Shown here piece after piece: positions 3,139 to 55,904 of a stretch of 64,000 nt of DNA. The stretch lies in NCBI GenBank assembly GCA_951406725.2, contig OX597843.1, forward strand, positions 15,066,001-15,130,000. The letters are read 5' to 3'. This DNA is from Octopus vulgaris. Taxonomy: Eukaryota. Made by a program: the position numbers and the translations under genes. Each line of letters begins with the position of its first letter. Within the stretch, counting starts at the first letter, position 1. The notes under the pieces were generated by a model, which had not been told where the DNA came from, did no database searches, and saw nothing but the letters and a program-made list of their open reading frames with translations.

Positions 3139-3312
3139 AAGTTATATGACTTAAAAAATTTCACTAGTCCTTTCAGAGGAGCTGGAAATAGCAAATAAGT
3201 TATATGACTTAAAAAATTTCACTAGTCCTTTCAGAGGAGCTGGAAATAGCAAATAAGTTATATGACTTAAAAAATTTCACTAGTCCTTTCAGAGGAGCTG
3301 GAAATAGCAAAT
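3139..3312. repeat. Tandem triplication of a 58-bp unit inside the Penelope RT
   Basis: aagttatatgacttaaaaaatttcactagtcctttcagaggagctggaaatagcaaat starts at 3139, 3197 and 3255. Confidence 0.95.
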
Positions 3313-3372
3313 AACGCATCGTCTCGATACAAACCTCTGCTGATATTAGGGAATTCTTCCTTAATTTTTGAA

Positions 3373-3880
3373 AGTACTTACTTGTACTTGTGGCAACATT
3401 CACCCTGGGTGGGTTGAGTCAGCTTCTTCCACCACCCTCGAGGCATCTCGAACCATGGCAGCCCGCGCATGACGGTCCTGTGCCAGTTCACTGGAGATAG
3501 CGAGCCAGTCACGGTTCTATTGGCGCAGGCTGATGTTGCCATTGTATTCGCCATTGAGAATTCATGGAAGAAGTTTCGTGGGAATATGTGGATTTCACAA
3601 GCGGTCCCCAACAATCAAGCATGTAGAGACATCCTGTTTGACGCAGGGATAGAATGACTGAGGAGCTGCCAGTTGCCGAAACAGACACTCTGAGGATTTT
3701 CACCAGAGCCCCATCTGCCGGGTTGTGGCCCTAATACCACTCGGTGTCAGACCAATCCGCCTTGGGTGGCCCTACCAGGAACCGAAGTTCCCGACGGCAT
3801 AGCTCTCACACTACCCGTTGCCAGCGTCCCCACCACGGTGAGGAGGGGATGGACTTTTTGAAAGTAAGAATAGGCCAACA
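3373..3880 (-). mobile_element. Internally deleted (bipartite) non-autonomous RTE derivative
   Basis: The minus strand joins an RTE-like 5' UTR (accgtggtgggg..gagctatgccg..cctggtagggccaccc) to an RTE ORF end (LAQDR..MVRDA) and an (AAGT)n-like tail. Confidence 0.55.
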
Positions 3881-4667
3881 ATATCAATGACCCGGGCAGA
3901 GCCCAAGTTTCCCATTGTAGCATCAAAGTCGTCCTGAAGGTCACATCGGGTCCAGGTCCTATTTTGGAAAGACATCAGTGTTTTCCTTGCAGTAAAAATA
4001 TTTTTCTCTAATGGTGGAATATCAGTAAAATTCTCTGCAAAAGTGAGTGATTGCTTTTATCAAGCAGGTCCAGCTTAGTCGACTGGTAGGGATTACTAAT
4101 GTCAAAATGTATCAAGTGAGTTTTCCTTTTTATTATTATTCAATGAGCAGAACAAAGTTATGACGTCCCCTGTGGATAGCCAAAGGTGGAAGGTCTGCAT
4201 TTCTTTTAACACAAGGGACAATTCTGCCAGTGATAGACTTATATATACATTCTGCATGGTAGCCCTCAGTACTGGATTATTCTGTTGTCTGCTAGCTGGG
4301 TGCACTCAAGGAGCTTTCTGTGATAGCCGTATGAGTCTATGAATTCATATATTACACTACAAACACACACACACACACACCATATTTACAGATGTATAAT
4401 GCCTGCCTTACAAAAAAAAAAAAGAAAGAAAAGAAAAGAAAGGAATTAACGTAAAATGTCTGAGTCAGAATAGAGTAGCATGAAAAAATATTTTAGATAA
4501 GAGGATAAAATCGGATTATTGATTTTTAGGTATTAAAAAATGTCTGTGTTGGGGTTCGCATAATTATTTGAATAAATGTGTGTGTGATTGTGTACACTTA
4601 CATATGCATATTAATAGAGAAAACTTTGTCAGAAGTTATGAAGCAGTTGTGTGTGTGTATATACATA

Positions 4668-5040
4668 GGCGTAGGAGTGGCTGTGTGGTAAGTAGCTGGT
4701 TCAGGGTTCAGTCCCACTGCGTGGCACCTTGGGCAAGTGTCTTCTACTATAGCCTCGGGCCGACCAAAGCCTTGTGAATGGATTTGGTAGATGGAAACTG
4801 AAAGAAGCCCGTCGTATATATGTATATGTGTGTATATATGTTTGTGTTTCTGTTTGTCCCCCTAGCATTGCTTGACAACCGATGCTGGTGTGTTTTCGTC
4901 CCTGTAACTTAGCGGTTCGGCAAAAGAGACCGATAGAATAAGTACTAGCCTTACAAAGAATAAGTCCTGGGGTCAATTTGCTCAACTAAAGGTGGTGCTC
5001 CAGCATGGCCACAGTCAAATGACTGAAACAAGTAAAAGAG
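4668..5040 (+). mobile_element. tRNA-derived SINE, family A
   Basis: A box (TGGCTGTGTGG) and B box (GGTTCAGTCCC), internal TA/TG microsatellite and tail ...gactgaaacaagtaaaagag. Many near-identical copies in the window. Confidence 0.9.
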
Positions 5041-5280
5041 TATGTATTAAGGTCTTTGAATTTTCCTCATGAATATTTGAAGACCTTTTTTTTTAACAGT
5101 TTATAAAAAAAATGTGAGATGATAATTGCATTCTTTCTTCCCTTTTTTCTTCTTAGCAATTTTATGCCAATTTATTCCTCACACATTTCCCCCCCTCCAC
5201 TTGCTTATTATTAATACCACTTCCTACCCCCTCCCCTTTCATGCCTTAATATTATTTTTCTCTTTATTATTGTTATTATT

Positions 5281-6618
5281 AATGAGTGAGCGAGCAGAGC
5301 ATGCCATCAAAGTGACACTGGGGTAAAATATACGAAGCCCAGTATACCCATCATGACTACCCGTCTGATAAGGGTACACCAGGCTCATGCATCACAACCA
5401 TATGTGCGCAACATGGTGATCTCATATGAAGATAAACAGCGCATGACCTTGCAGGTGGGGCCCAGCTAGAATTTTCTTCAGGTTGAGTAGCCCATCCCGC
5501 TCTAAAGGTCCCTGAATAAGGATTGTGTAAGGATGTTGAACGAAACACCCATGTTTCCACAGGTGAATTATCCAAACGCCAAAGAATCCCTCTCAACACA
5601 TGGCTATGATGCTCCTCTTCTACTTCTGCTCATGATCAGAGATGCACATTTCGTCAGCCACCAAAGGATGCACAACTGGTTAAGGTCAATCGAATGACAA
5701 GCAAATCTGTGGTATTGAGCAGAATATTTGCTGTAGCCCCTCTTTTATACCAAGACAAAAACAATGTACATGATAACACTTCCAATCAGTTAAGATCAGA
5801 AGCCATGCGAACCAGTGCTTGGTACTGCATCAGAGCATTATTATCATTCAGTAGTTTTATTTTTATAGTGTGCTTTCACTTCACTACCGAGCGCAGCTCT
5901 GTGTGCCATGGATATGTGCTGTGGTTTGTTGTGATGCTCTGATGGTTACTGTATTGAAAGTGTTTTGTGTAGGATGTGTGCAGTGCCTAGTAGTGCAATT
6001 TTCTGTATGTTATATGTGTTTGTAAGTCCTGGTGTTTTTGTTATGTATTTGTCTGAATATTTTTTTATCATGCCTAATGCACCTACTATGATAGGAATTG
6101 TTTCTGTTTTTAGATTCCACATTCTGGTTACCTCTATTTCTAGGTCTTTGTATTTTGAAAGTTTCTCCATTTCTTTGAGAGACACGTTGTCATCTGCCGG
6201 TATTGATACATCAATTAGAAAGCATTTTTTTCTTCATGATCTCTGACAACTATATCTGGTCTGTTGGCCTTAATTTCTCTATCCGTGTGTATCGGCATAT
6301 CCCAGAGTATGGTTGCTTTCTCGTTTCTGTAACCTTTTCTGGTGTGTGCCTATACCATCTTTTTTCTGTTGTTATTCCATAATGTTGGCATAGCTTTCAG
6401 TGTATGTAGGTTCCAACTCTGTCATGTCTGTAAATATATTCCTTCTTAGCCAGGACTAGGCAGCCAGAGATAATATGATTTATTGTTTCTTGCCCATCTC
6501 CACATATTCTGCAGTTACTTGTTATATTTCTTTTCATTACAGGTTTTTGGTAATTTCTGGTGGGGAGGCTTTGGTCTTGTGCCACAATTAAAAATCCCTC
6601 CATCTCTGCTTTGAGTCT
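5281..6618 (-). mobile_element. R4/Dong-clade non-LTR retrotransposon 3' fragment (zinc knuckle, restriction-like endonuclease, long 3' UTR)
   Basis: AQDQSLPTRNY..CRICG..ETINHIISGC..Y..RHD, RPDIV, K.SKYKDL..IVGALG. The 3' end runs into a TAA-rich tract, the known Dong target. Confidence 0.85.
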
Positions 6619-6619
6619 T

Positions 6620-6822
6620 GGCAGAATCATTAGTATGCTGGGCAAAATGCTTAGTAATTGCTATGTTCTGAGTTCAAATTCCGCCGATGTCGACTTTGCC
6701 TGTCATCCTTTCAGGTTCGATAAATTAAGTACCAGTGAACTAATGGGGGTTCAATGTAATTGACTAGTTCACTCTCCCCAAATTTCAGGCCTTGTGCCTT
6801 TAGTAGAAAGGATTATTATTAT
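6620..6822 (+). mobile_element. SINE family B (tRNA head plus conserved central domain)
   Basis: gagttcaaattccgccga.gtcgactttgcct.tcatcctttc..gataaattaagtaccag. Related copies at about 7121-7325, 30088-30355, 45615-45845 and 63480-63645. Confidence 0.8.
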
Positions 6823-30355: not shown

Positions 30356-32360
30356 GCTTTAGAATGTAAACATTCATTTTAGAAATATATTCTTAAAATG
30401 AATTAAAAAAGTAATTCTATATTAAAGAATAATTTCAAAATAAAATTAGCTTTTTCGAAATTTTTAAGAACCTACAATAGCAACAAGCCTGGTAAGAAGA
30501 AGAATAAGAGCAATTATAACAAACAACAGATTAATTTAAATCTATTGGCTGTGGCCTCTACCTGGGACGTAGCCAGTCCACTTATGCATACCGTTCCTTC
30601 TTGTGACACAAACCCTACTTGTGAAGACCTGTTGAGGCAAGTGAAAATCAAAATCAAAATCAAAATCTTTCAACATCAATGGAAATTGTAGCTGAGATAC
30701 CAGTGCCGGTGGCACGTAAGAGAACCGTCTGAACGGGGCCATTGCCAGCGCCGCCCCGACTGGCCTCCGTGTCAGTGGCACATAAAAAGCACCATCCGAT
30801 TGTGGCCGTTTGCCAGCCTCGTCTGGCACCTGTGCAGGTGGCACATAAAAAGCACCCACTACACTCATGGGGTGGTTGGCATTAGGAAGGGCATCCAGCT
30901 GTAGAAACCATACCAAAACATAATCTGGAATCTGGTATGGCCCCTGGCCTTGCCAGCTGCTGTCAAAACATCCAACCCATGCCAGCATGGAAAGCGGACA
31001 CTAAACGATGATGATGATGATATTTCTTTGCTTGGAGCATTACTCCCTTATTTTACATTTTATGACATTTTACTTCATAACTTTTTTTACTACTAATTTT
31101 TGTTAAATGCAACTAATGATTTTGAATTCCTCACGCATTTTCCTACCATCTAAACCAAAGAAAAGTATACTTTTAGTTTTAAATTTAAAAATTTATGATA
31201 ATCAAAAATGAACACCTGCTTTACTGCCCACCTTTAAGCCTTTAGTGTTTAAACTGGCCAAATCCAGCCCAAATATTCTACAAGTTTTATATTCAAACTG
31301 GCCAGATCCAGCCTCTCACACCTAACTTACATTGATATTCTAAAAATAAACAATCACATCACTGAAACTTCAAAGCTATAAGATAATGCATAATTAATTA
31401 AAAACAATTTGAGTGAAAAAAATATATTTAACAGAGTAATTTGAACACTAAAGGGTTAAGCCTCCCATATTTTGATGTAACTTTTATCCTACTGAACCAA
31501 ATCTCAAACTATTTATGCCAAAATGTAGCTGAGGAGGTGTCCCCTTTAAAACTGCTAACAGTTTGCAATTTAGTTGAGAACTGAATTAGTGGTTGAAGTT
31601 TGGAAGCTGCTACGGTTGACGAAATGGTGGACTTGAAAATATATATTCTATAAATTGAAAGGTGTAATGAATAAATGCTCCAATTGGTCAAAACAACTTT
31701 ATATCATTCCCAAATTATCAAAATTCGAATATAAATATATATTAAAACAATAGGGCACCCCAAGGTAAAACCCAACAGTATAAAATGTCGCCTTACTGGC
31801 ACATGAACAAAACATTCGAGCAAGATTGTTACCAGTGCCACTGGACTGACTCCTGTGCAGGTGGCAAGTAAAGAAACACCGTTTCGACCCTGTGCTTGGG
31901 GAGACCTATTGAGTCGAGTACATCAGCATCAAAAATTCAAATGAAAACTGTAGTTGTGATACCCGTGCCGGTTGCACGTAAAAAGCAACATCTGAACGTG
32001 GCCGATGGCAGCGCCGCCTTGACTGGCTTCCGTGCTGGTGGCACGTAAAAAGCAACAACTGATCGTGGTCGCTGCCAACCTTGCCTGGCATGTAAAAAGC
32101 ACCCACTACACTCACGGAGTGGTTGGCGTTAGGAAGGGCATCCAGCTGAAGAAACACTGCCAGATCAGACTGGAGCCTGGTGCAGCCTCCTGGCTTCCCA
32201 GACCCCAGTCAAACCGTCCAACCCATGCTAGCATGGAAAACGGACGTTAAATGATGATGATGATGATATACACGAATAAAAGGTGATAAAACCTAAAAGG
32301 GTAAGATGAGTGAAGTGGAATGAAGACGAAATATATGGAATAAATTAATTCATAATCAAT

Positions 32361-32735: not shown

Positions 32736-33414
32736 AACCACTAAGAATTTAAGGCAAGGGAGCTAAAATGATAAATATAAAAATTAAGTGTAAGGAAACG
32801 AGAAGAGAGTCCATTCAGGCCCACCTCTACGATTGCTTCAAAGGATTCTGGTTCACATCGTTAATGGTAGACTCCAAAGGTAACAGCTTTTCATTTGGAG
32901 AAAACTTAGAAAGGCTTCCACAATTCTGGTTATTGTGATCGTTACCAGCGTCGCCTGGGATCGTTACCAGCGTCGCCTTACTGGCACCTTTGCCGGTGGC
33001 ATGTGTAAAAAGATTCGAGCAAGGTCGTTGCCAGTACTGCCTGACAGGCCCCCGTGCCGGTGGCACATAAAGGCACCCACTATACTCTCGGAGTGGTTGG
33101 CGTTAGGAAGGGCATTCAGCTGTAGAAACTCTGCCAGATCAGATTGGAGCCTGGTGCAGCCATCTGGTTTGCCAGCCCTCAGTCAAAATCGTCCAACCCA
33201 TGCTAGCATGGAAAGCGGACGTTAAACGATGATGATGATGATGTTCAATTGCAGAAACAGACAAGTTAAAATAAGAATCCAGTGGGTTCAAGTAAAGATC
33301 AGTTCAAAGGTCAAGAATTGAATTTAGATGAAGAAATTGCTATAGGTTCTACTTAATTTCAATTCAAGATCACGGCTGAGGCGGGCCTCTGAAACATCCG
33401 ATTTTAATTTTATA

Positions 33415-34834: not shown

Positions 34835-36530
34835 TGGCATGTAAAAAGCACCATCCGAACGTGGTCGATGCCAGCACCTCCTGTCTGGCCCCTGTGCCGG
34901 TGGCATGTAAAAAGCACCATCCAAACGTGGTCGATGCCAGCACCTCCTGTCTGGCCCCTGTGCCGGTGGCATGTAAAAAGCACCATCCGAACGTGGTCGA
35001 TGCCAGCACCTCCTGTCTGGACCCTGTGCCGGTGGCATGTAAAAAGCACCATCCGAATGTGGTCGATGCCAGCACCTCCTGTCTGGCCCCTGTGCCGGTG
35101 GCATGTAAAAAGCACCATCCGAACGTGGTCGATGCCAGCACCTCCTGTCTGGCCCCTGTGCCGGTGGCATGTAAAAAGCACCATCCGAACGTGGTCGATG
35201 CCAGCACCTCCTGTCTGGCCCCTGTGCCGGTGGCATGTAAAAAGCACCATCCGAACGTGGTCGATGCCAGCACCTCCTGTCTGGCCCCTGTGCCGGTGGC
35301 ATGTAAAAAGCACCATCCGAACGTGGTCGATGCCAGCACCTCCTGTCTGGCCCCTGTGCCGGTGGCATGTAAAAAGCACCATCCGAACGTGGTCGATGCC
35401 AGCACCTCCTGTCTGGACCCTGTGCCGGTGGCATGTAAAAAGCACCATCCGAACGTGGTCGATGCCAGCACCTCCTGTCTGGCCCCTGTGCTGGTGGCAT
35501 GTAAAAAGCACCATCCGAACGTGGTCGATGCCAGCACCTCTTGTCTGGCCCCTGTGCCGGTGGCATGTAAAAAGCACCATCCGAACGTGGTCGATGCCAG
35601 CACCTCCTGTCTGGCCCCTGTGCTGGTGGCATGTAAAAAGCACCATCCGAACGTGGTCGATGCCAGCACCTCCTGTCTGGCCCCTGTGCCGGTGGCATGT
35701 AAAAAGCACCATCCGAACGTGGTCGATGCCAGCACCTCCTGTCTGGCCCCTGTGCCGGTGGCATGTAAAAAGCACCATCCGAACGTGGTCGATGCCAGCA
35801 CCTCCTGTCTGGCCCCTGTGCCGGTGGCATGTAAAAAGCACCATCCGAACGTGGTCGATGCCAGCACCTCCTGTCTGGCCCCTGTGCCGGTGGCATGTAA
35901 AAAGCACCATCCGAACGTGGTCGATGCCAGCACCTCCTGTCTGGCCCCTGTGCCGGTGGCATGTAAAAAGCACCATCCGAACGTGGTCGATGCCAGCACC
36001 TCCTGTCTGGCCCCTGTGCCGGTGGCATGTAAAAAGCACCATCCGAACGTGGTCGATGCCAGCACCTCCTGTCTGGCCCCTGTGCCGGTGGCATGTAAAA
36101 AGCACCATCCGAACGTGGTCGATGCCAGCACCTCCTGTCTGGCCCCTGTGCCGGTGGCATGTAAAAAGCACCATCCGAACGTGGTCGATGCCAGCACCTC
36201 CTGTCTGGCCCCTGTGCCGGTGGCATGTAAAAAGCACCATCCGAACGTGGTCGATGCCAGCACCTCCTGTCTGGCCCCTGTGCCGGTGGCATGTAAAAAG
36301 CACCATCCGAACGTGGTCGATGCCAGCACCTCCTGTCTGGCCCCTGTGCCGGTGGCATGTAAAAAGCACCATCCGAACGTGGTCGTCGATGCCAGCACCT
36401 CCTATCTGGCCCCTGTGCTGGTGGCATGTAAAAAGCACCATCCGAACGTGGTCGATGCCAGCACCTCCTATCTGGCCCCTGTGCTGGTGGCATGTAAAAA
36501 GCACCATCCGAACGTGGTCGATGCCAGCAT
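34835..36530 (+). repeat. 66-bp minisatellite, about 25.5 near-identical copies, derived from the family C 3' UTR module
   Basis: Unit tggcatgtaaaaagcaccatccgaacgtggtcgatgccagcacctcctgtctggcccctgtgccgg, giving 22-aa periodicity in the ORF track. Confidence 0.97.
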
Positions 36531-47946: not shown

Positions 47947-49533
47947 TTAATATAAAAACACATTATCAATTTCATTTCCTGTGTCTGGGATGGTAGATAT
48001 AACTATCTGAATCTCAGTGTTGTTGTTGTTGTTATTATTATTATTATTCTTAATTATTTTGCTCAAATTGTCCAGTTCATTCCTTCTTTTGCCACAGTTG
48101 TTGTTGTTGTTATTGTTATTGTTGCTGTTGTTGTTGCTGCTGCTGCTGCTGCTGCTCCTGCTGCTGTCGCTGATGTAGTTAGCAATCGACAATTTCCTCG
48201 TTATCTGTTGTCTCTGAAATTCCACCAGGGACCCGTTGTCGCTCAGCCGACCTTCGTCGTTCCCCACTGTTAATGCTGCGTTGCTTTTCTTGTTGTTGTT
48301 GATGTTGTTGTTGATGGTGGTCGTCGTGGTGGTCATGGTGGCGGTGGAGAAAATTTCCTGTCTCCACTCCTCGTCCGAATCACGTGAATCGACGAACCCC
48401 AAATCATCCTCTGTCGTAGAATTCCTTGCAGTTCGTCCGCCCGTTTGCGGCTGGTTGTGTTGGTGGCCTTCACTCTTCACTTCCCAGTCCCAGGCCTGTG
48501 AGATCGAACTACTGCCAAAGCTTGTTGACATCGGTTCCTCTCCGGTGCTGCTGTTGCCACTACTACTACTGCTACTGAGGTCAACGTTGTTATAAAACTG
48601 TTTTCTTTTGGCCAAAACAAATTGGCCGCTGATGATGTTCTCGGTCGGTTCCTGCAGCTTTGTACAGATTATCTGATGCGGAAAGTTGTTGCCGCCATCG
48701 TGGTAGAGATAATTGTCGACATTTTTATTGTTGTTGTTCTGGTTGTTGACGTAATTGAAGTCAGTGATGTCAAATTTGTCGCTGATCACTTTGTGGCCTC
48801 GAAGCGCCAGGGAAGTTGCGAGATGTCTGAAACTCTTCGGCACATACTCATTGATCTTCGTCGTGTAAGTGCCACCACCCCCTGGACCAATTCCGCCGTA
48901 CCCACTGCTGACGTCGTCTCTATAGTTTTTGCTATTACTGTTGTTGTTGTTGTTGTTGTATGCGCTCACGTAGTTCACACAGACATTTGATGCCATTCTC
49001 AATTCCGATGCCGCAGTCGAATTCGGAGGAACCAGGAGGTATTTGGAATTGTCGTAGGCTCGTTTGTCCTTCCTGTTGGAAATCTTTTCAAAGAAACTCA
49101 TCTTAGAACTCTTCTTGTTATTCTTCTTGTGCTTATTTCTCAGCAAAGTCGAAGAACCTTTCACACGTTCGTCCGAGTTTGTTGATGAAAGTCTTCTGCT
49201 GTGTATGGCGTTGTTCAACACACCATTTTTGTATTTTGAATGGAGGTCCTGGTAATTGTTTCCATAAATTAACGGGTTGTTGCTCCCGGAAACGTTTTGA
49301 GCAGATGCAAACTGCATCCTTCGGTACGCATCAAGGTCGAAGTAATTCTTCGAAGGCGATAAATCATTTTCACACCAAAGATTGGCCAACGAATAAAACA
49401 TGGCCGAATAATGGTAATCATCACTATCATCACCCGCATAGGTTTTAATGAGGTTATTTTTCCTTTGGTTGCGGGTTGCTGCTCGCTTGTAACGCTGTCG
49501 ACCTGTGATTAGACGGTGCCAAAGAGAAGGCAT
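47947..49533 (-). CDS. Uncharacterised 528-aa N/S-rich, probably disordered protein; CDS in one exon
   Basis: 1587-nt uninterrupted ORF in non-transposon sequence, good start context (caaaacATG), candidate acceptor ttttacag| at 49650 upstream, and microsatellites limited to frame-preserving triplets (poly-N/S/T). No domain recognised. Confidence 0.72.
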   Translation of the reverse strand: MPSLWHRLITGRQRYKRAATRNQRKNNLIKTYAGDDSDDYHYSAMFYSLANLWCENDLSPSKNYFDLDAYRRMQFASAQNVSGSNNPLIYGNNYQDLHSKYKNGVLNNAIHSRRLSSTNSDERVKGSSTLLRNKHKKNNKKSSKMSFFEKISNRKDKRAYDNSKYLLVPPNSTAASELRMASNVCVNYVSAYNNNNNNSNSKNYRDDVSSGYGGIGPGGGGTYTTKINEYVPKSFRHLATSLALRGHKVISDKFDITDFNYVNNQNNNNKNVDNYLYHDGGNNFPHQIICTKLQEPTENIISGQFVLAKRKQFYNNVDLSSSSSSGNSSTGEEPMSTSFGSSSISQAWDWEVKSEGHQHNQPQTGGRTARNSTTEDDLGFVDSRDSDEEWRQEIFSTATMTTTTTTINNNINNNKKSNAALTVGNDEGRLSDNGSLVEFQRQQITRKLSIANYISDSSRSSSSSSSNNNSNNNNNNNNNCGKRRNELDNLSKIIKNNNNNNNNNNTEIQIVISTIPDTGNEIDNVFLY

Positions 49534-49735
49534 GTTTTGGCTGTTTATGGTTTTTGGTTCTGTTCTGAGCTGTCGACCAAAATATTTTGGTTGCGTACTT
49601 TGAAATTCTTGCGTCTCTCTTTTGGTTCAGTTTTGAGTTTGGGAGAAAACCTGTAAAAGATATTTGAAATATTTCGTAGAAAAATATTTTTAATACAAAA
49701 ATAACATAAATTAAACAAAATTTTTAAAAATAAAA

Positions 49736-49991: not shown

Positions 49992-50434
49992 TATTTCATA
50001 AATGTTGTCCATAAACAGATGGATGGACGACTGGACAAATAAATAAACAATTGATAAATAAATAAATAAATAGGCATGGCTGTGTGGTAAGAAGTTTGAT
50101 TCCCAACCACATGGTTCTGGGTTCAGTCCCACTACATGGGATCTTGGGCAAGTGTCTTTTACTAAAGACTCAGGTAGACTTGTAAGTGGGACTGAGTGTG
50201 GCCGTTGCCAGTACCGCCTGACTGGCCCTTGTACCAGTGGCATGTAAAAAGCACCCACTACACTCTCAGAGTGGTTGGCATTAGGAAGGGCATCCAGCTG
50301 TAGAAACACTGCCAGATCAGATTGGAGCCTGGTGCAGCCTCCTGGCTCACCAGTCCTCAGTCAAATCGTCCAACCCATGCTAGCATGGAAAGCGGACGTT
50401 AAACGGCAATGATGATGATGATAAGACACGCAAA

Positions 50435-50836
<402 letters not shown>

Positions 50837-51065
50837 ATAGAAATATTAAAATTACTAAGTCTCTCTAAAAGAGAACAACGGCAGCGTTCCCGGAAAATAT
50901 TAGTTATCGCCATACTAATATGGCATTCTTATAAAAATAAGAATAAAGCTGACCGCTTATTAGCTCCATGAGGCCATCGCCTTAAGTTAGCTATTTGATA
51001 CACAAACTGTATCCATATAACCTTTGAACAAGGGAGGTCAGTCGCTCCACACTACTTGGCCGGCA

Positions 51066-51107
51066 GCTACAGACGCGTTTCGGGGTATTGCCCCTTTTCA
51101 ATGCAGC
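51066..51107 (-). ncRNA. Minimal type I hammerhead ribozyme with U3-A8 core covariation
   Basis: Minus strand: GCUGCA-UUGAAAA-GGGG-CAAUA-CCCC-GAAAC-GC-GUC|UGUAGC. Stem I 6 bp, stem II 4 GC pairs, palindromic stem III ACGCGU, GUC triplet. Confidence 0.8.
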
Positions 51108-51209
51108 GTAGCCAAACCAGTAGGTGTCGCTTCTGACAATCTCTGTTCAAAGGTTTTATTCTGACAATCTCTGTTCAAAGGTTTTATTCGGTGGAATACA
51201 TCCACTTGT

Positions 51210-51838
<629 letters not shown>

Positions 51839-52200: not shown

Positions 52201-52723
52201 CATGCTGATCATCATCATCATCATCATCGTTTAACGTCCGTTTTCCATGCTAGCATGGGTTGGACGGTTCGACCGGGGTCTGGGAAGCCAGAAGGCTGCA
52301 CCAGGCTCCAGTCTGATCTGGCAATGTTTCTACAGCTGGATGCCCTTCCTAACGCCAACCACTCCGCAAGTGTAGTGGGTGCTTTTTACGTACCACCTGC
52401 ACAGGTGCCAGGGGAGGCTGGCAAACGGCCACGATCGGATGGTGCTTTTAACGTGCCACCCAGTTTATAAAAGGTATAAATGCACACACCTGCCAAAGAC
52501 AAACTCCCATGTTGAAATACTACACACTTAGACAGGCTTCTTTCAGTTTCTGTCTGTCAAATCCTCTCACAAGGCTTTGGTCGGCCTGGGGCTATGGTAG
52601 AAGACACTAGCCAAAGGTGCCAAGCAGTGGGACTGAACCTGGAACCATGCAGTAGGGAAGCAAGCTTCTTACCTCAGCCAGTAGTCACATTTATGCCAAT
52701 ATTAAATGAGTTATAATCTAGAG

Positions 52724-52943: not shown

Positions 52944-52991
52944 ATCTAGATATAGGCATGAGGGAACAATTCTGCCAGCTCCCTGCCTTAG

Positions 52992-53097
52992 AAAATATGG
53001 AATGCTTCACAAGTTTGCATGTCAGCCTTGCACAGGGGCCATGCTAATCTTTTCTGCATCGTTCCAATTTTAGTCTATGAACTGCTGAAGCAAGTAT
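52992..53097 (-). pseudogene. U6: Full-length U6 snRNA pseudogene
   Basis: Minus strand atacttgcttcagcag..ctaaaattggaacgatgcagaaaagattagcatggcccctgtgcaaggctgacatgcaaacttgtgaagcattccatatttt. The essential ACAGAGA box is mutated to GCAGAAA, with many CpG-type transitions. Confidence 0.92.
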
Positions 53098-55180: not shown

Positions 55181-55904
55181 GATAGTATTTTGCTCAAGAG
55201 CACAACACACCACCCGGTCTCGGAATTGAAACCGCAATCTCATGATCATGAGTGCAACACCCTAACCATTAGACCAGTGAAACAGATTGTCTTTTTTGTG
55301 TGTTTGTTAGTTTTGACCTCAAGTTGTGCCTGCAACCAACTTGTTTGTCCCAGGAAGGGAATGACTGCTTTTGTTCATTGTACAGTTTGAGTTTGGTGGT
55401 TGGAGGTGGTGGTGGTGGTGGGCTGCTTATGATGTTGATTTCATTATGTGTATCATCATCATCATCATCACCATCATCATCATCGTTTAGCATCTGCTTT
55501 CCATGCTGGCATGGGTTGGACGGTTCAACTGGGGTCTGGGAAGCCAGGAGGCTGCACCAGGCTCCAGTCAGATCTGGCAGTGTTTCTGCAGCTGGATGCC
55601 CTTCCTAACGCCAACCACTCTGAGAGTGTAGTGGGTGCTTTTTACATGCCAGGCGAGGCTGGCAAAAGTTCACAATTGGATGGTGCTTTTTATGTGCCAC
55701 CGGCACGGAGGCCAGGCGAGGCTGGCAATGGCCACGATCAGATGGTGCTTTTTAAGTGGCACTGGTACGGAGGCCAGTTGGAGCGGTGCTGGCAACGGCC
55801 ATGTTCGGATGGTTCTCTTATGTGCCACCGACACAATTTCCATTGATGTTGAATCGATTTCGATTTTGATTTTGATTTTGATGTGTATATATATATATAT
55901 ATAT

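What the first reader, a model, noticed from the sequence alone, without database searches (positions are those of the whole stretch)
50837..51209. Intact U3-A8 covariant hammerhead isolated between two very long (TA)n tracts
Seen: a 370-bp island between about 400 and 610 bp of TA contains a 42-nt HHR in which both C3 and G8 are changed (UUGAAAA), preserving the 3-8 pair. Stem I extends (GGC/GCC), a 12-bp outer inverted repeat (aacctttgaaca / tgttcaaaggtt) encloses it, and a 29-bp tandem duplication follows. Established: the 3-8 pair is needed for catalysis and compensatory swaps retain activity. Standard CUGANGA searches would miss this motif. It lies on the same strand as the orphan gene, 1.4 kb upstream of its acceptor, so it is possibly intronic in that transcript.
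Basis: partly seen in the sequence, partly recalled or inferred. Interest (0 to 1): 0.75.

Follow-up and report, generated by a model that had tools for sequence, protein, structure and literature searches.

The report
Retrozyme copy with U3-A8 hammerhead
The island between the two TA tracts is one young copy of an abundant 363-base mobile repeat whose hammerhead ribozyme motif carries U3-A8 in place of C3-G8 in nearly every copy; it is likely copied by a Penelope-like retrotransposon of the same genome, and this kind of element is already known.

Summary
A 42-nt type-I hammerhead (HHR) with core UUGAAAA lies on the minus strand at 51066-51107, between 399 bp and 615 bp of TA. The only slip is that the tandem duplication is 28 bp, not 29.

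It is not isolated. It is one unit-length copy of a 363-nt tandem-repeat family.
- Intact cores in the genome: 1285 have U3/A8, 10 have a single mismatch, 0 have C3/G8.
- Older subfamilies (70-78% identical) keep U3-A8 and vary N7.
- They covary in stems I and II and swap the helix III hexamer among four palindromes (ACGCGU, ACUAGU, ACAUGU, ACCGGU). This is the signature of a dimeric HHR.
- Insertions sit in (TA)n. They are mostly head-to-head, with both outer ends at fixed element 3' termini.
- An autonomous Penelope-like element (781-aa RT plus GIY-YIG ORF) targets (TA)n too. It carries a U3-A8 min-HHR in its pseudo-LTR (1244 of 1263 motif matches).

Best reading: a metazoan non-LTR retrozyme, a non-autonomous partner of a Penelope-like element. 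The window copy has only one ribozyme and is probably inert. Natural U3-A8 HHRs in such elements were reported in 2014, so this is a new member of a known kind. Cleavage, circular RNA and the intron idea remain untested, because no RNA reads were available.

The parts
50438..50836 (.). (AT)n tract, 399 bp. It is the left half of the TA microsatellite that served as the insertion target.
   Evidence: TRF period 2, 199.5 copies
50837..51209 (-). One unit-length copy of the 363-nt retrozyme family. It covers monomer positions 243-363 then 1-238, counting from the predicted cleavage site. The element's 3' end (..TTTCTAT) lies at the 50837 side.
   Evidence: 99-100% identical to genomic copies
51066..51107 (-). 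42-nt type-I hammerhead motif: 6-bp stem I, core, stem II hairpin, short helix III.
   Evidence: covariation
51095..51101 (-). Core box UUGAAAA (U3 U4 G5 A6 A7 A8 A9), with U3-A8 in place of C3-G8.
   Evidence: genome counts
51082..51094 (-). Stem II hairpin GGGG-CAAUA-CCCC.
51073..51078 (-). Palindrome ACGCGU (15.1 to 16.1). It is predicted to form a 6-bp intermolecular helix III in a dimer.
   Evidence: cofold; other subfamilies carry other palindromes
51071..51072 (-). Predicted self-cleavage site, C17 (51072) | U1.1 (51071). Not tested.
   Evidence: placed by the hammerhead numbering; inference
51131..51189 (-). 28-nt tandem duplication (2.1 copies), private to this copy. It sits next to a small deletion relative to the family monomer.
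   Evidence: other copies match only query positions 50-373
51019..51030 (-). One arm of the inverted repeat. In the family RNA it pairs with 51144-51155 as part of the long rod that extends stem I.
51144..51155 (-). The other arm of the inverted repeat, repeated at 51172-51183 by the duplication.
51210..51824 (.). (TA)n tract, 615 bp. It is the right half of the target microsatellite.

Best explanation
The island is a young, unit-length insertion of a 363-nt tandem-repeat retroelement (a metazoan non-LTR retrozyme) whose type-I hammerhead motif has U3-A8 instead of C3-G8, and it was likely put into the (TA)n tract by the reverse transcriptase-endonuclease of a Penelope-like element (PLE) of the same genome.

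Shown here:
- membership of the family and its copy numbers
- a conserved core and covarying helices
- palindromic helix III in all subfamilies
- insertion architecture and the TA target
- a co-resident autonomous PLE with a U3-A8 min-HHR

Inferred:
- Multimeric transcripts of tandem arrays would pair two ribozymes through the palindrome, cleave after C17 and release 363-nt monomers.
- These monomers would be circularised.
- The RNA would then be reverse-transcribed at nicked (TA)n, primed at two TA-like sites of the RNA (monomer positions ~175 and ~238), often from both DNA ends. That would give head-to-head arrays.
- The window copy holds a single ribozyme, so it is predicted to be an inert end product rather than a working ribozyme of the neighbouring gene.
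For: Family and copy number:
- One search gave 151 matches at 92-100% identity (most 98-100%), from 40 scored of 805 candidates, on many contigs.
- Arrays have period 363.

State of the 3-8 pair, in the context xTGAxxAGGGG-N3-7-CCCCGAAAC:
- U3/A8 1285
- non-U3 7, all with A8
- U3/non-A8 3
- C3/G8 0
- N7 is A in 983 and C/U/G in 302.

Sample of the older subfamily anchored on non-ribozyme sequence, 44 ribozyme regions:
- 3/8 is UA in 40.
- Core positions differ from the consensus at 25 of 526 cells, against 494 of 2973 for non-core cells (Fisher p 7e-15).

Covariation (alignment of 66 rows):
- 84.6% of cells are paired, against 79.5% when shuffled (0 of 500 shuffles reach it) and 31-49% when partners are slid.
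- 114 cells have changes on both sides, against 43 shuffled.
- Stem I types are UCUGCA/UGCAGA, UCCACA/UGUGGA and UCUACA/UGUAGA.
- Helix III hexamers are ACGCGU, ACUAGU, ACAUGU and ACCGGU, all palindromes.

Folding:
- The dimer cofold is -53.7 kcal/mol, against 2 x -23.8 for monomers, with the intermolecular 6-bp helix formed.
- The circular monomer folds at -116.5 kcal/mol, z -5.85, GC 41%.

Insertion architecture (45 unique insertions):
- 33 are head-to-head, 12 are single-arm and none is tail-to-tail.
- 71 of 78 outer 3' ends fall at monomer positions 167-179 or 234-242.
- 53 of 90 flanks are at least 50% TA repeat, against 30 of 480 background windows.

Autonomous partner:
- It has 456-bp pseudo-LTRs and ends in (TA)n.
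- The pseudo-LTR carries UUGAUAA-GGUUC..GAACY-GAAAC-AUGU in 21 of 21 aligned copies from several subfamilies.
- Genome counts for this motif: U3/A8 1244, others 19.

Literature:
- Retrozyme features: PMC7229834, sections 13 and 14 read.
- PLE insertion structure and (TA)n bias: PMC8557442, passages read.
- Retrozymes as PLE derivatives: 10.64898/2026.07.22.740005, abstract only.
Against: - No cleavage, RNA end or circular RNA was observed. No RNA run is on record, and only assembled contigs could be laid.
- Rfam hammerhead models do not score the motif.
- PLE min-HHRs cleaved poorly in vitro in the one published test (PMC4209133, section 3).
- The retrozyme shares no sequence with the autonomous PLE outside the ribozyme core. 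One search found only one, probably incidental, adjacent copy in L140. The partnership therefore rests on the shared core, the shared target and the shared insertion architecture.
- The young copies are 99-100% identical, so their uniformity says nothing about selection. The selection argument rests on the older subfamilies, 21 of whose 66 alignment rows were picked with a pattern that demanded U3 and A8.
Confidence: 0.8

Rival explanations
1. The hammerhead-like fold is kept for a non-catalytic role, such as a recognition or priming structure for the PLE reverse transcriptase. Under this reading U3-A8 marks a ribozyme that no longer needs to cleave.
For: PLE min-HHRs showed low activity in vitro (PMC4209133, section 3). 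Naiad PLEs thrive without canonical hammerheads (PMC8557442, passages). No cleavage evidence was obtained here.
Against: All catalytic positions are conserved across subfamilies, not only the helices: 25 of 526 core cells vary, against 494 of 2973 non-core cells. The one free core position, N7, is the one that varies. The 3-8 partners are kept as a pair in 1285 and 1244 copies. Helix III stays palindromic through four sequence states. This is the pattern expected of an active dimeric ribozyme.
Confidence: 0.13
2. One reading: this particular copy acts within the transcript of the neighbouring minus-strand open frame (47947-49626), as an intronic self-cleaving element.
For: It lies on the same strand and about 1.2 kb upstream of a 559-aa stop-free frame.
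Against: The copy is an ordinary, near-identical member of a dispersed repeat. It has one ribozyme whose helix III needs a partner. No RNA data exist to show that the region is transcribed or spliced. In vertebrates retrozymes are reported as depleted from introns (10.64898/2026.07.22.740005, abstract only).
Confidence: 0.04
3. It is plain satellite DNA that resembles a hammerhead by chance.
For: It forms tandem arrays, and no Rfam model scores it.
Against: The arguments against are the covariation, the core conservation, the palindrome series, the dispersed TA-targeted insertions with defined 3' ends, and a matching motif in an autonomous retroelement. The reversed control patterns give 0 matches.
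Confidence: 0.02

Closest known systems
Metazoan non-LTR retrozymes (Cervera and de la Pena 2020, PMC7229834)
   Same: [quoted passage not shown] Helix I has 6 bp, helix II has 4 bp, and helix III is very short and palindromic. GC is low (41%). There are no LTRs. The predicted circular RNA is highly self-paired. Autonomous PLEs live in the same genome.
   Different: The core has U3-A8 instead of C3-G8 throughout the family. Insertion is specific to (TA)n, with two fixed 3' termini. Expression and circularity are not shown here.
U3-A8 covariant min-hammerheads of Schistosoma mansoni Cercyon PLEs (Cervera and de la Pena 2014, PMC4209133)
   Same: A natural U3-A8 swap in hammerheads tied to Penelope-like elements, with thousands of copies and a dimer-type helix III.
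   Different: Different animal and different sequences. Here the swap is near-universal in these two motif contexts: 0 C3/G8 matches in the retrozyme context and 1 in the PLE context. It is seen both in a canonical-architecture retrozyme ribozyme and in the PLE pseudo-LTR motif. In Schistosoma it coexists with C3-G8 families.
Canonical EN+ Penelope-like elements (Neptune/Penelope type; PMC8557442)
   Same: The insertion architecture is shared: partial tandems, an inverted 5'-truncated copy and a microsatellite (TA)n target. The hammerhead sits in the pseudo-LTR, and the ORF is RT followed by a C-terminal GIY-YIG domain.
   Different: The window element encodes nothing and is only 363 nt long. 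Clade assignment of the 781-aa ORF was not attempted.
Rfam Hammerhead_1 (RF00163)
   Same: Type-I topology and the same core apart from positions 3 and 8.
   Different: The motif does not reach any reportable score. Six unrelated canonical C3-G8 hammerheads in the same genome do.

Membership tests
Hammerhead ribozyme, type I | Three helices around a junction, in the order stem I 5' strand, core box, stem II hairpin, GAAA, helix III, H17, stem I 3' strand | tested here: met
   Sequence parse. The helices are supported by covariation. Helix III is only 2 bp plus a 2-nt loop as a monomer and 6 bp as a dimer.
Hammerhead ribozyme, type I | Conserved core U4 G5 A6 N7 A9, G12 A13 A14, A15.1-U16.1, H17 | tested here: met
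   All are present in the window copy. Each is 89-100% conserved in 44 copies sampled without regard to the ribozyme.
Hammerhead ribozyme, type I | C3 and G8 (the CUGANGA box) | tested here: not met
   The window copy has U3 and A8. These could form a Watson-Crick pair in place of C3-G8. Counts are 1285 U3/A8 against 0 C3/G8.
Hammerhead ribozyme, type I | Score above the Rfam gathering threshold | tested here: not met
   No hammerhead match at E<=10 on 451 nt or on 96 nt.
Hammerhead ribozyme, type I | Site-specific self-cleavage | not testable with these tools
   No raw RNA reads were available; only contigs could be laid.
Metazoan non-LTR retrozyme | Short tandem repeats (about 150-450 bp), each with a type-I hammerhead, in multiple copies | tested here: met
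   Period 363, with arrays holding up to four or more ribozymes in the sampled loci. An older subfamily has period 343.
Metazoan non-LTR retrozyme | GC below 50% and a highly self-paired predicted circular RNA | tested here: met
   GC 41%, 62% of bases paired, MFE -116.5 kcal/mol, z -5.85 against 100 shuffles.
Metazoan non-LTR retrozyme | [quoted passage not shown] | not testable with these tools
   No RNA holder is listed.
Non-autonomous derivative of a Penelope-like element | PLE-type insertion structure (tandem units plus an inverted 5'-truncated copy) and a microsatellite target | tested here: met
   33 of 45 unique insertions are head-to-head, and 53 of 90 flanks are TA repeat.
Non-autonomous derivative of a Penelope-like element | Sequence relationship to the pseudo-LTR of an autonomous PLE in the same genome | tested here: inconclusive
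   The U3-A8 core UUGAUAA..GAAAC and the ACAUGU palindrome are shared. There is no BLAST similarity outside the ribozyme.

The most novel reading that the evidence does not exclude
A whole, currently active Penelope/retrozyme lineage of this animal runs on a U3-A8 hammerhead. This would be a selected core swap across the lineage, and so a natural proof that the swapped pair supports the full cleavage and retrotransposition cycle. The recurrent pairing of outer ends at monomer positions ~175 and ~238 would record twin-primed reverse transcription of a circular or multimeric RNA from both sides of a break in (TA)n.
Probability: 0.4. Interest if true: 0.6.

Novelty: new member of a known kind. 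Interest (0 to 1): 0.4.

Why it matters
Hammerhead surveys that use CUGANGA descriptors or the Rfam models would miss this lineage entirely. It has at least 2500 intact cores, counting the retrozyme and PLE forms together.

The lineage offers a natural series for studying the 3-8 pair and dimer-dependent cleavage: U3-A8 is fixed, N7 is free, and helix III takes four palindromic forms. The fixed 3' termini and head-to-head arrays in (TA)n give a readable record of how a PLE-type enzyme primes on its RNA.

For annotating this window, the result simply marks 50837-51209 as a transposable-element insertion.

Tried and rejected
- Rfam at E<=10 on 451 nt and on 96 nt gave no hammerhead.
- RNA evidence: no RNA holder is listed for the stretch.
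- The two read-laying runs used assembled contigs only. They showed no accumulation of ends and cannot show cleavage, strand or level. They did show look-alike sequence in runs labelled with six coded organisms. No variant row appeared at U3 or A8, though some rows were not printed.
- Two ribozymes 6.6 kb apart on C1 were checked as a possible autonomous element. They are two separate insertions with low-complexity DNA between them.
- BLAST of the monomers against 30 GIY-YIG loci found no homology apart from one adjacent copy in L140.
- A same-context search for a C3-G8 ancestor found none.
- RF00163 over the genome found six canonical hammerheads unrelated to this family.
- Earlier-findings look-ups returned nothing relevant.
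- Literature on the activity of U3-A8 mutants: two searches gave only indirect passages. That compensatory 3-8 swaps retain activity (Przybilski and Hammann 2007; Nelson and Uhlenbeck 2008) is recalled and cited second-hand from PMC3884650; I did not read those papers.
- A search for 'retrozyme' plus 'cephalopod' listed one paper that holds both words; I found no retrozyme report for such animals in the passages read.
- The 559-aa frame next door was not searched against protein databases.

Full report
**1. The observation**

The window has (AT)n at 50438-50836 and (TA)n at 51210-51824, with a 373-bp island between them. On the minus strand the island reads as follows:
- GCUGCA, 51107-51102
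- UUGAAAA, 51101-51095
- GGGG-CAAUA-CCCC, 51094-51082
- GAA, 51081-51079
- ACGCGU, 51078-51073
- C, 51072
- UGUAGC, 51071-66

This is a type-I hammerhead of 42 nt. Every core position is standard except C3>U and G8>A. The MFE fold forms stems I and II and the GGC/GCC extension of stem I. The inverted repeat and the tandem duplication are there, but the period is 28, not 29. Rfam finds no hammerhead even at E<=10. Its only gathering-level hit in the window is a U6 snRNA at 52991-53097.

**2. It is a repeat family**

The 373 nt match 151 places in the window's own 2.8-Gb genome at 92-100% identity (most 98-100%), from 40 scored of 805 candidates. The matches form tandem arrays of period 363. All other copies match only query positions 50-373. 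The 28-nt duplication and a small adjacent deletion are therefore private to the window copy. Apart from these and one substitution, the copy is identical to a typical monomer.

Counting from the predicted cleavage site, the window copy runs 243-363 then 1-238. This is one full turn of the unit, with a single ribozyme in its interior.

**3. The 3-8 pair in the family**

With the exact 33-nt context, there are 787 matches, none with a non-U at position 3 or a non-A at position 8.

With the looser context xTGAxxAGGGG-N3-7-CCCCGAAAC:
- U3/A8 1285
- non-U3 7, namely four C3 and three A3, all with A8
- U3/G8 3
- C3/G8 0

Reversed control patterns give 0 matches. Position 7, the free position of the hammerhead core, is A in 983 copies and C, U or G in 302.

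**4. Older subfamilies and covariation**

Copies with N7=U are 70-78% identical to the young monomer over its whole length. To avoid choosing copies by their ribozyme, I searched with 250 nt of non-ribozyme sequence from one old copy. This gave 2869 first-look candidates, of which 40 were scored. I then collected all 47 ribozyme regions in the 30 loci returned, which made 44 distinct rows.

In those 44 rows the 3/8 state is UA in 40, CA in 2, AA in 1 and UU in 1. The twelve core positions differ from the consensus in 25 of 526 cells, against 494 of 2973 for the other columns of the same 90-nt region (Fisher p 7e-15).

Stem I comes in matched types: UCUGCA/UGCAGA, UCCACA/UGUGGA and UCUACA/UGUAGA. 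The young families add GCUGCA/UGUAGC and GCUACA/UGUAGC.

The hexamer from 15.1 to 16.1 is ACUAGU in 29 of 44 rows, ACAUGU in 6 of 44, ACGCGU in the young families and ACCGGU in L068. All four are palindromes.

I aligned 66 rows:
- the 44 rows above
- 21 rows chosen with a pattern that demanded U3/A8
- the window copy

No rows were dropped, although about ten are cut by insertion junctions. On this alignment my stated structure pairs 84.6% of cells, against 79.5% in shuffles (0 of 500 reach it) and 31-49% when partners are slid. There are 114 cells changed on both sides, against 43 in shuffles.

**5. Folding**

Two copies of the 66-nt ribozyme cofold at -53.7 kcal/mol, against -47.6 for two monomers. 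The dimer has the 6-bp ACGCGU duplex between the molecules. The 363-nt unit folded as a circle gives -116.5 kcal/mol (z -5.85 against 100 dinucleotide shuffles). Between the young and old families that repeat changes on both arms, UUUGAA/UUCAAA to UUCGAA/UUCGAA.

**6. How copies are inserted**

I mapped 60 loci onto the monomer and removed overlaps, which left 45 unique insertions:
- 33 are head-to-head, 12 are single-arm and none is tail-to-tail.
- Of 78 outer ends that are element 3' ends, 37 fall at positions 234-242 (..TTTCTAT/TAT) and 34 at 167-179 (..AACTAATAT). The 12 5' ends are scattered.
- 25 of the 33 head-to-head insertions have one end of each kind.
- 53 of 90 flanks are at least half TA repeat, against 30 of 480 background windows.

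Both termini are TA-like stretches of the RNA. I infer priming by microhomology at a nicked (TA)n, frequently from both DNA ends. This matches the published description of PLE insertions, with partial tandems, an inverted 5'-truncated copy and a (TA)n bias (PMC8557442, passages read).

**7. An autonomous partner**

GIY-YIG (PF01541) has 6136 first-look candidates in the genome. Of the 148 matches listed, many sit in 781-aa open frames. One such frame carries RVT_1, just under its cut-off, plus a C-terminal GIY-YIG domain.

In L152 the element has 456-bp direct pseudo-LTRs that are 99.3% identical. It begins and ends in (TA)n.

Each pseudo-LTR carries UUGAUAA-GGUU..AACU-GAAAC-AUGU-U. This motif, with stem II GGUUC/GAACY, is present in 21 of 21 aligned pseudo-LTR copies spanning 73-100% identity.

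Genome counts for this motif:
- U3/A8 1244
- non-U3 9, of which one is a C3-G8 motif with a different loop
- U3/non-A8 10

Outside the ribozyme, the retrozyme and the PLE share no detectable sequence.

**8. Other organisms and RNA**

Contigs of eight public runs, labelled with six coded organisms, hold look-alike sequence. Variant rows appear at many positions, including N7, but none at U3 or A8. Some rows were not printed, and contigs drop rare variants. No run on record is RNA, and no raw reads were available. Expression, ends and circles are therefore untested.

**9. Comparison with what is known**

The element meets the structural definition of metazoan non-LTR retrozymes (PMC7229834, sections 13-14 read). 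A 2026 preprint argues that these are PLE derivatives (10.64898/2026.07.22.740005, abstract only).

A natural U3-A8 covariation in PLE hammerheads was reported for Schistosoma mansoni in 2014, with about 1300 hits (PMC4209133, section 3 read). So the core swap is not new.

What is particular here is that the swap is essentially fixed in both the non-autonomous and the autonomous elements of one genome. It comes with a clean series of palindromic helix III variants and two fixed 3' termini.

**10. Verdict**

This copy is an ordinary, very young transposable-element insertion in a TA microsatellite that adjoins a SINE-like repeat. It is probably inert by itself.

The intron idea is untested and unlikely. 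Cleavage and circular RNA remain to be shown.

Noticed in passing
window 52991-53097 (-): U6 spliceosomal snRNA gene, 87.6 bits over the full model length. It lies 1.8 kb from the island on the same strand.
   Followed up: no
window 50198-50425, with at least 12 further copies (e.g. 33023-33242, 32086-32268, 52211-52432, 55467-55651): A SINE-like repeat at 79-92% identity. One copy abuts the left TA tract through an (ATG)n tail. A 66-bp-period tandem array derived from part of it fills about 34861-36505.
   Followed up: partly
It was not searched against protein databases, and no RNA data were available.
   Followed up: no
L152 (G000:C16:20833500-20842500), ORF 3245-5587, pseudo-LTRs 1430-1885 and 6217-6672: An autonomous Penelope-like element with an open 781-aa RT plus GIY-YIG frame. 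Many copies with the same frame length occur across the genome, which suggests recent activity.
   Followed up: partly
45 insertions in L001-L066: In 25 of 33 head-to-head insertions, one outer end is at monomer position ~175 and the other at ~238. The two sites are 63 nt apart. Why the two arms use different priming sites is unexplained.
   Followed up: partly
L097:1782-1812 and the next unit (G000:C14): An old three-unit array in which stem II is AAAG/CCUU instead of GGGG/CCCC. 10.1-11.1 and 10.2-11.2 have changed to A-U on both sides. The array is not in a TA tract, and its flanks share AAATGAAG.
   Followed up: no
L031-L036: Six canonical C3-G8 type-I hammerheads (RF00163, 34-45 bits) elsewhere in the genome. 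Three have a ~70-nt insertion in stem II and the palindrome ACGAUCGU. They are unrelated to the U3-A8 family.
   Followed up: partly
G000:C17:5294900-5294927 (-): The only C3-G8 match to the PLE-type stem II context (CUGAUGA-GGUUC-ACACGA-GAACC-GAAAC). It may be a relative that keeps the standard pair.
   Followed up: no
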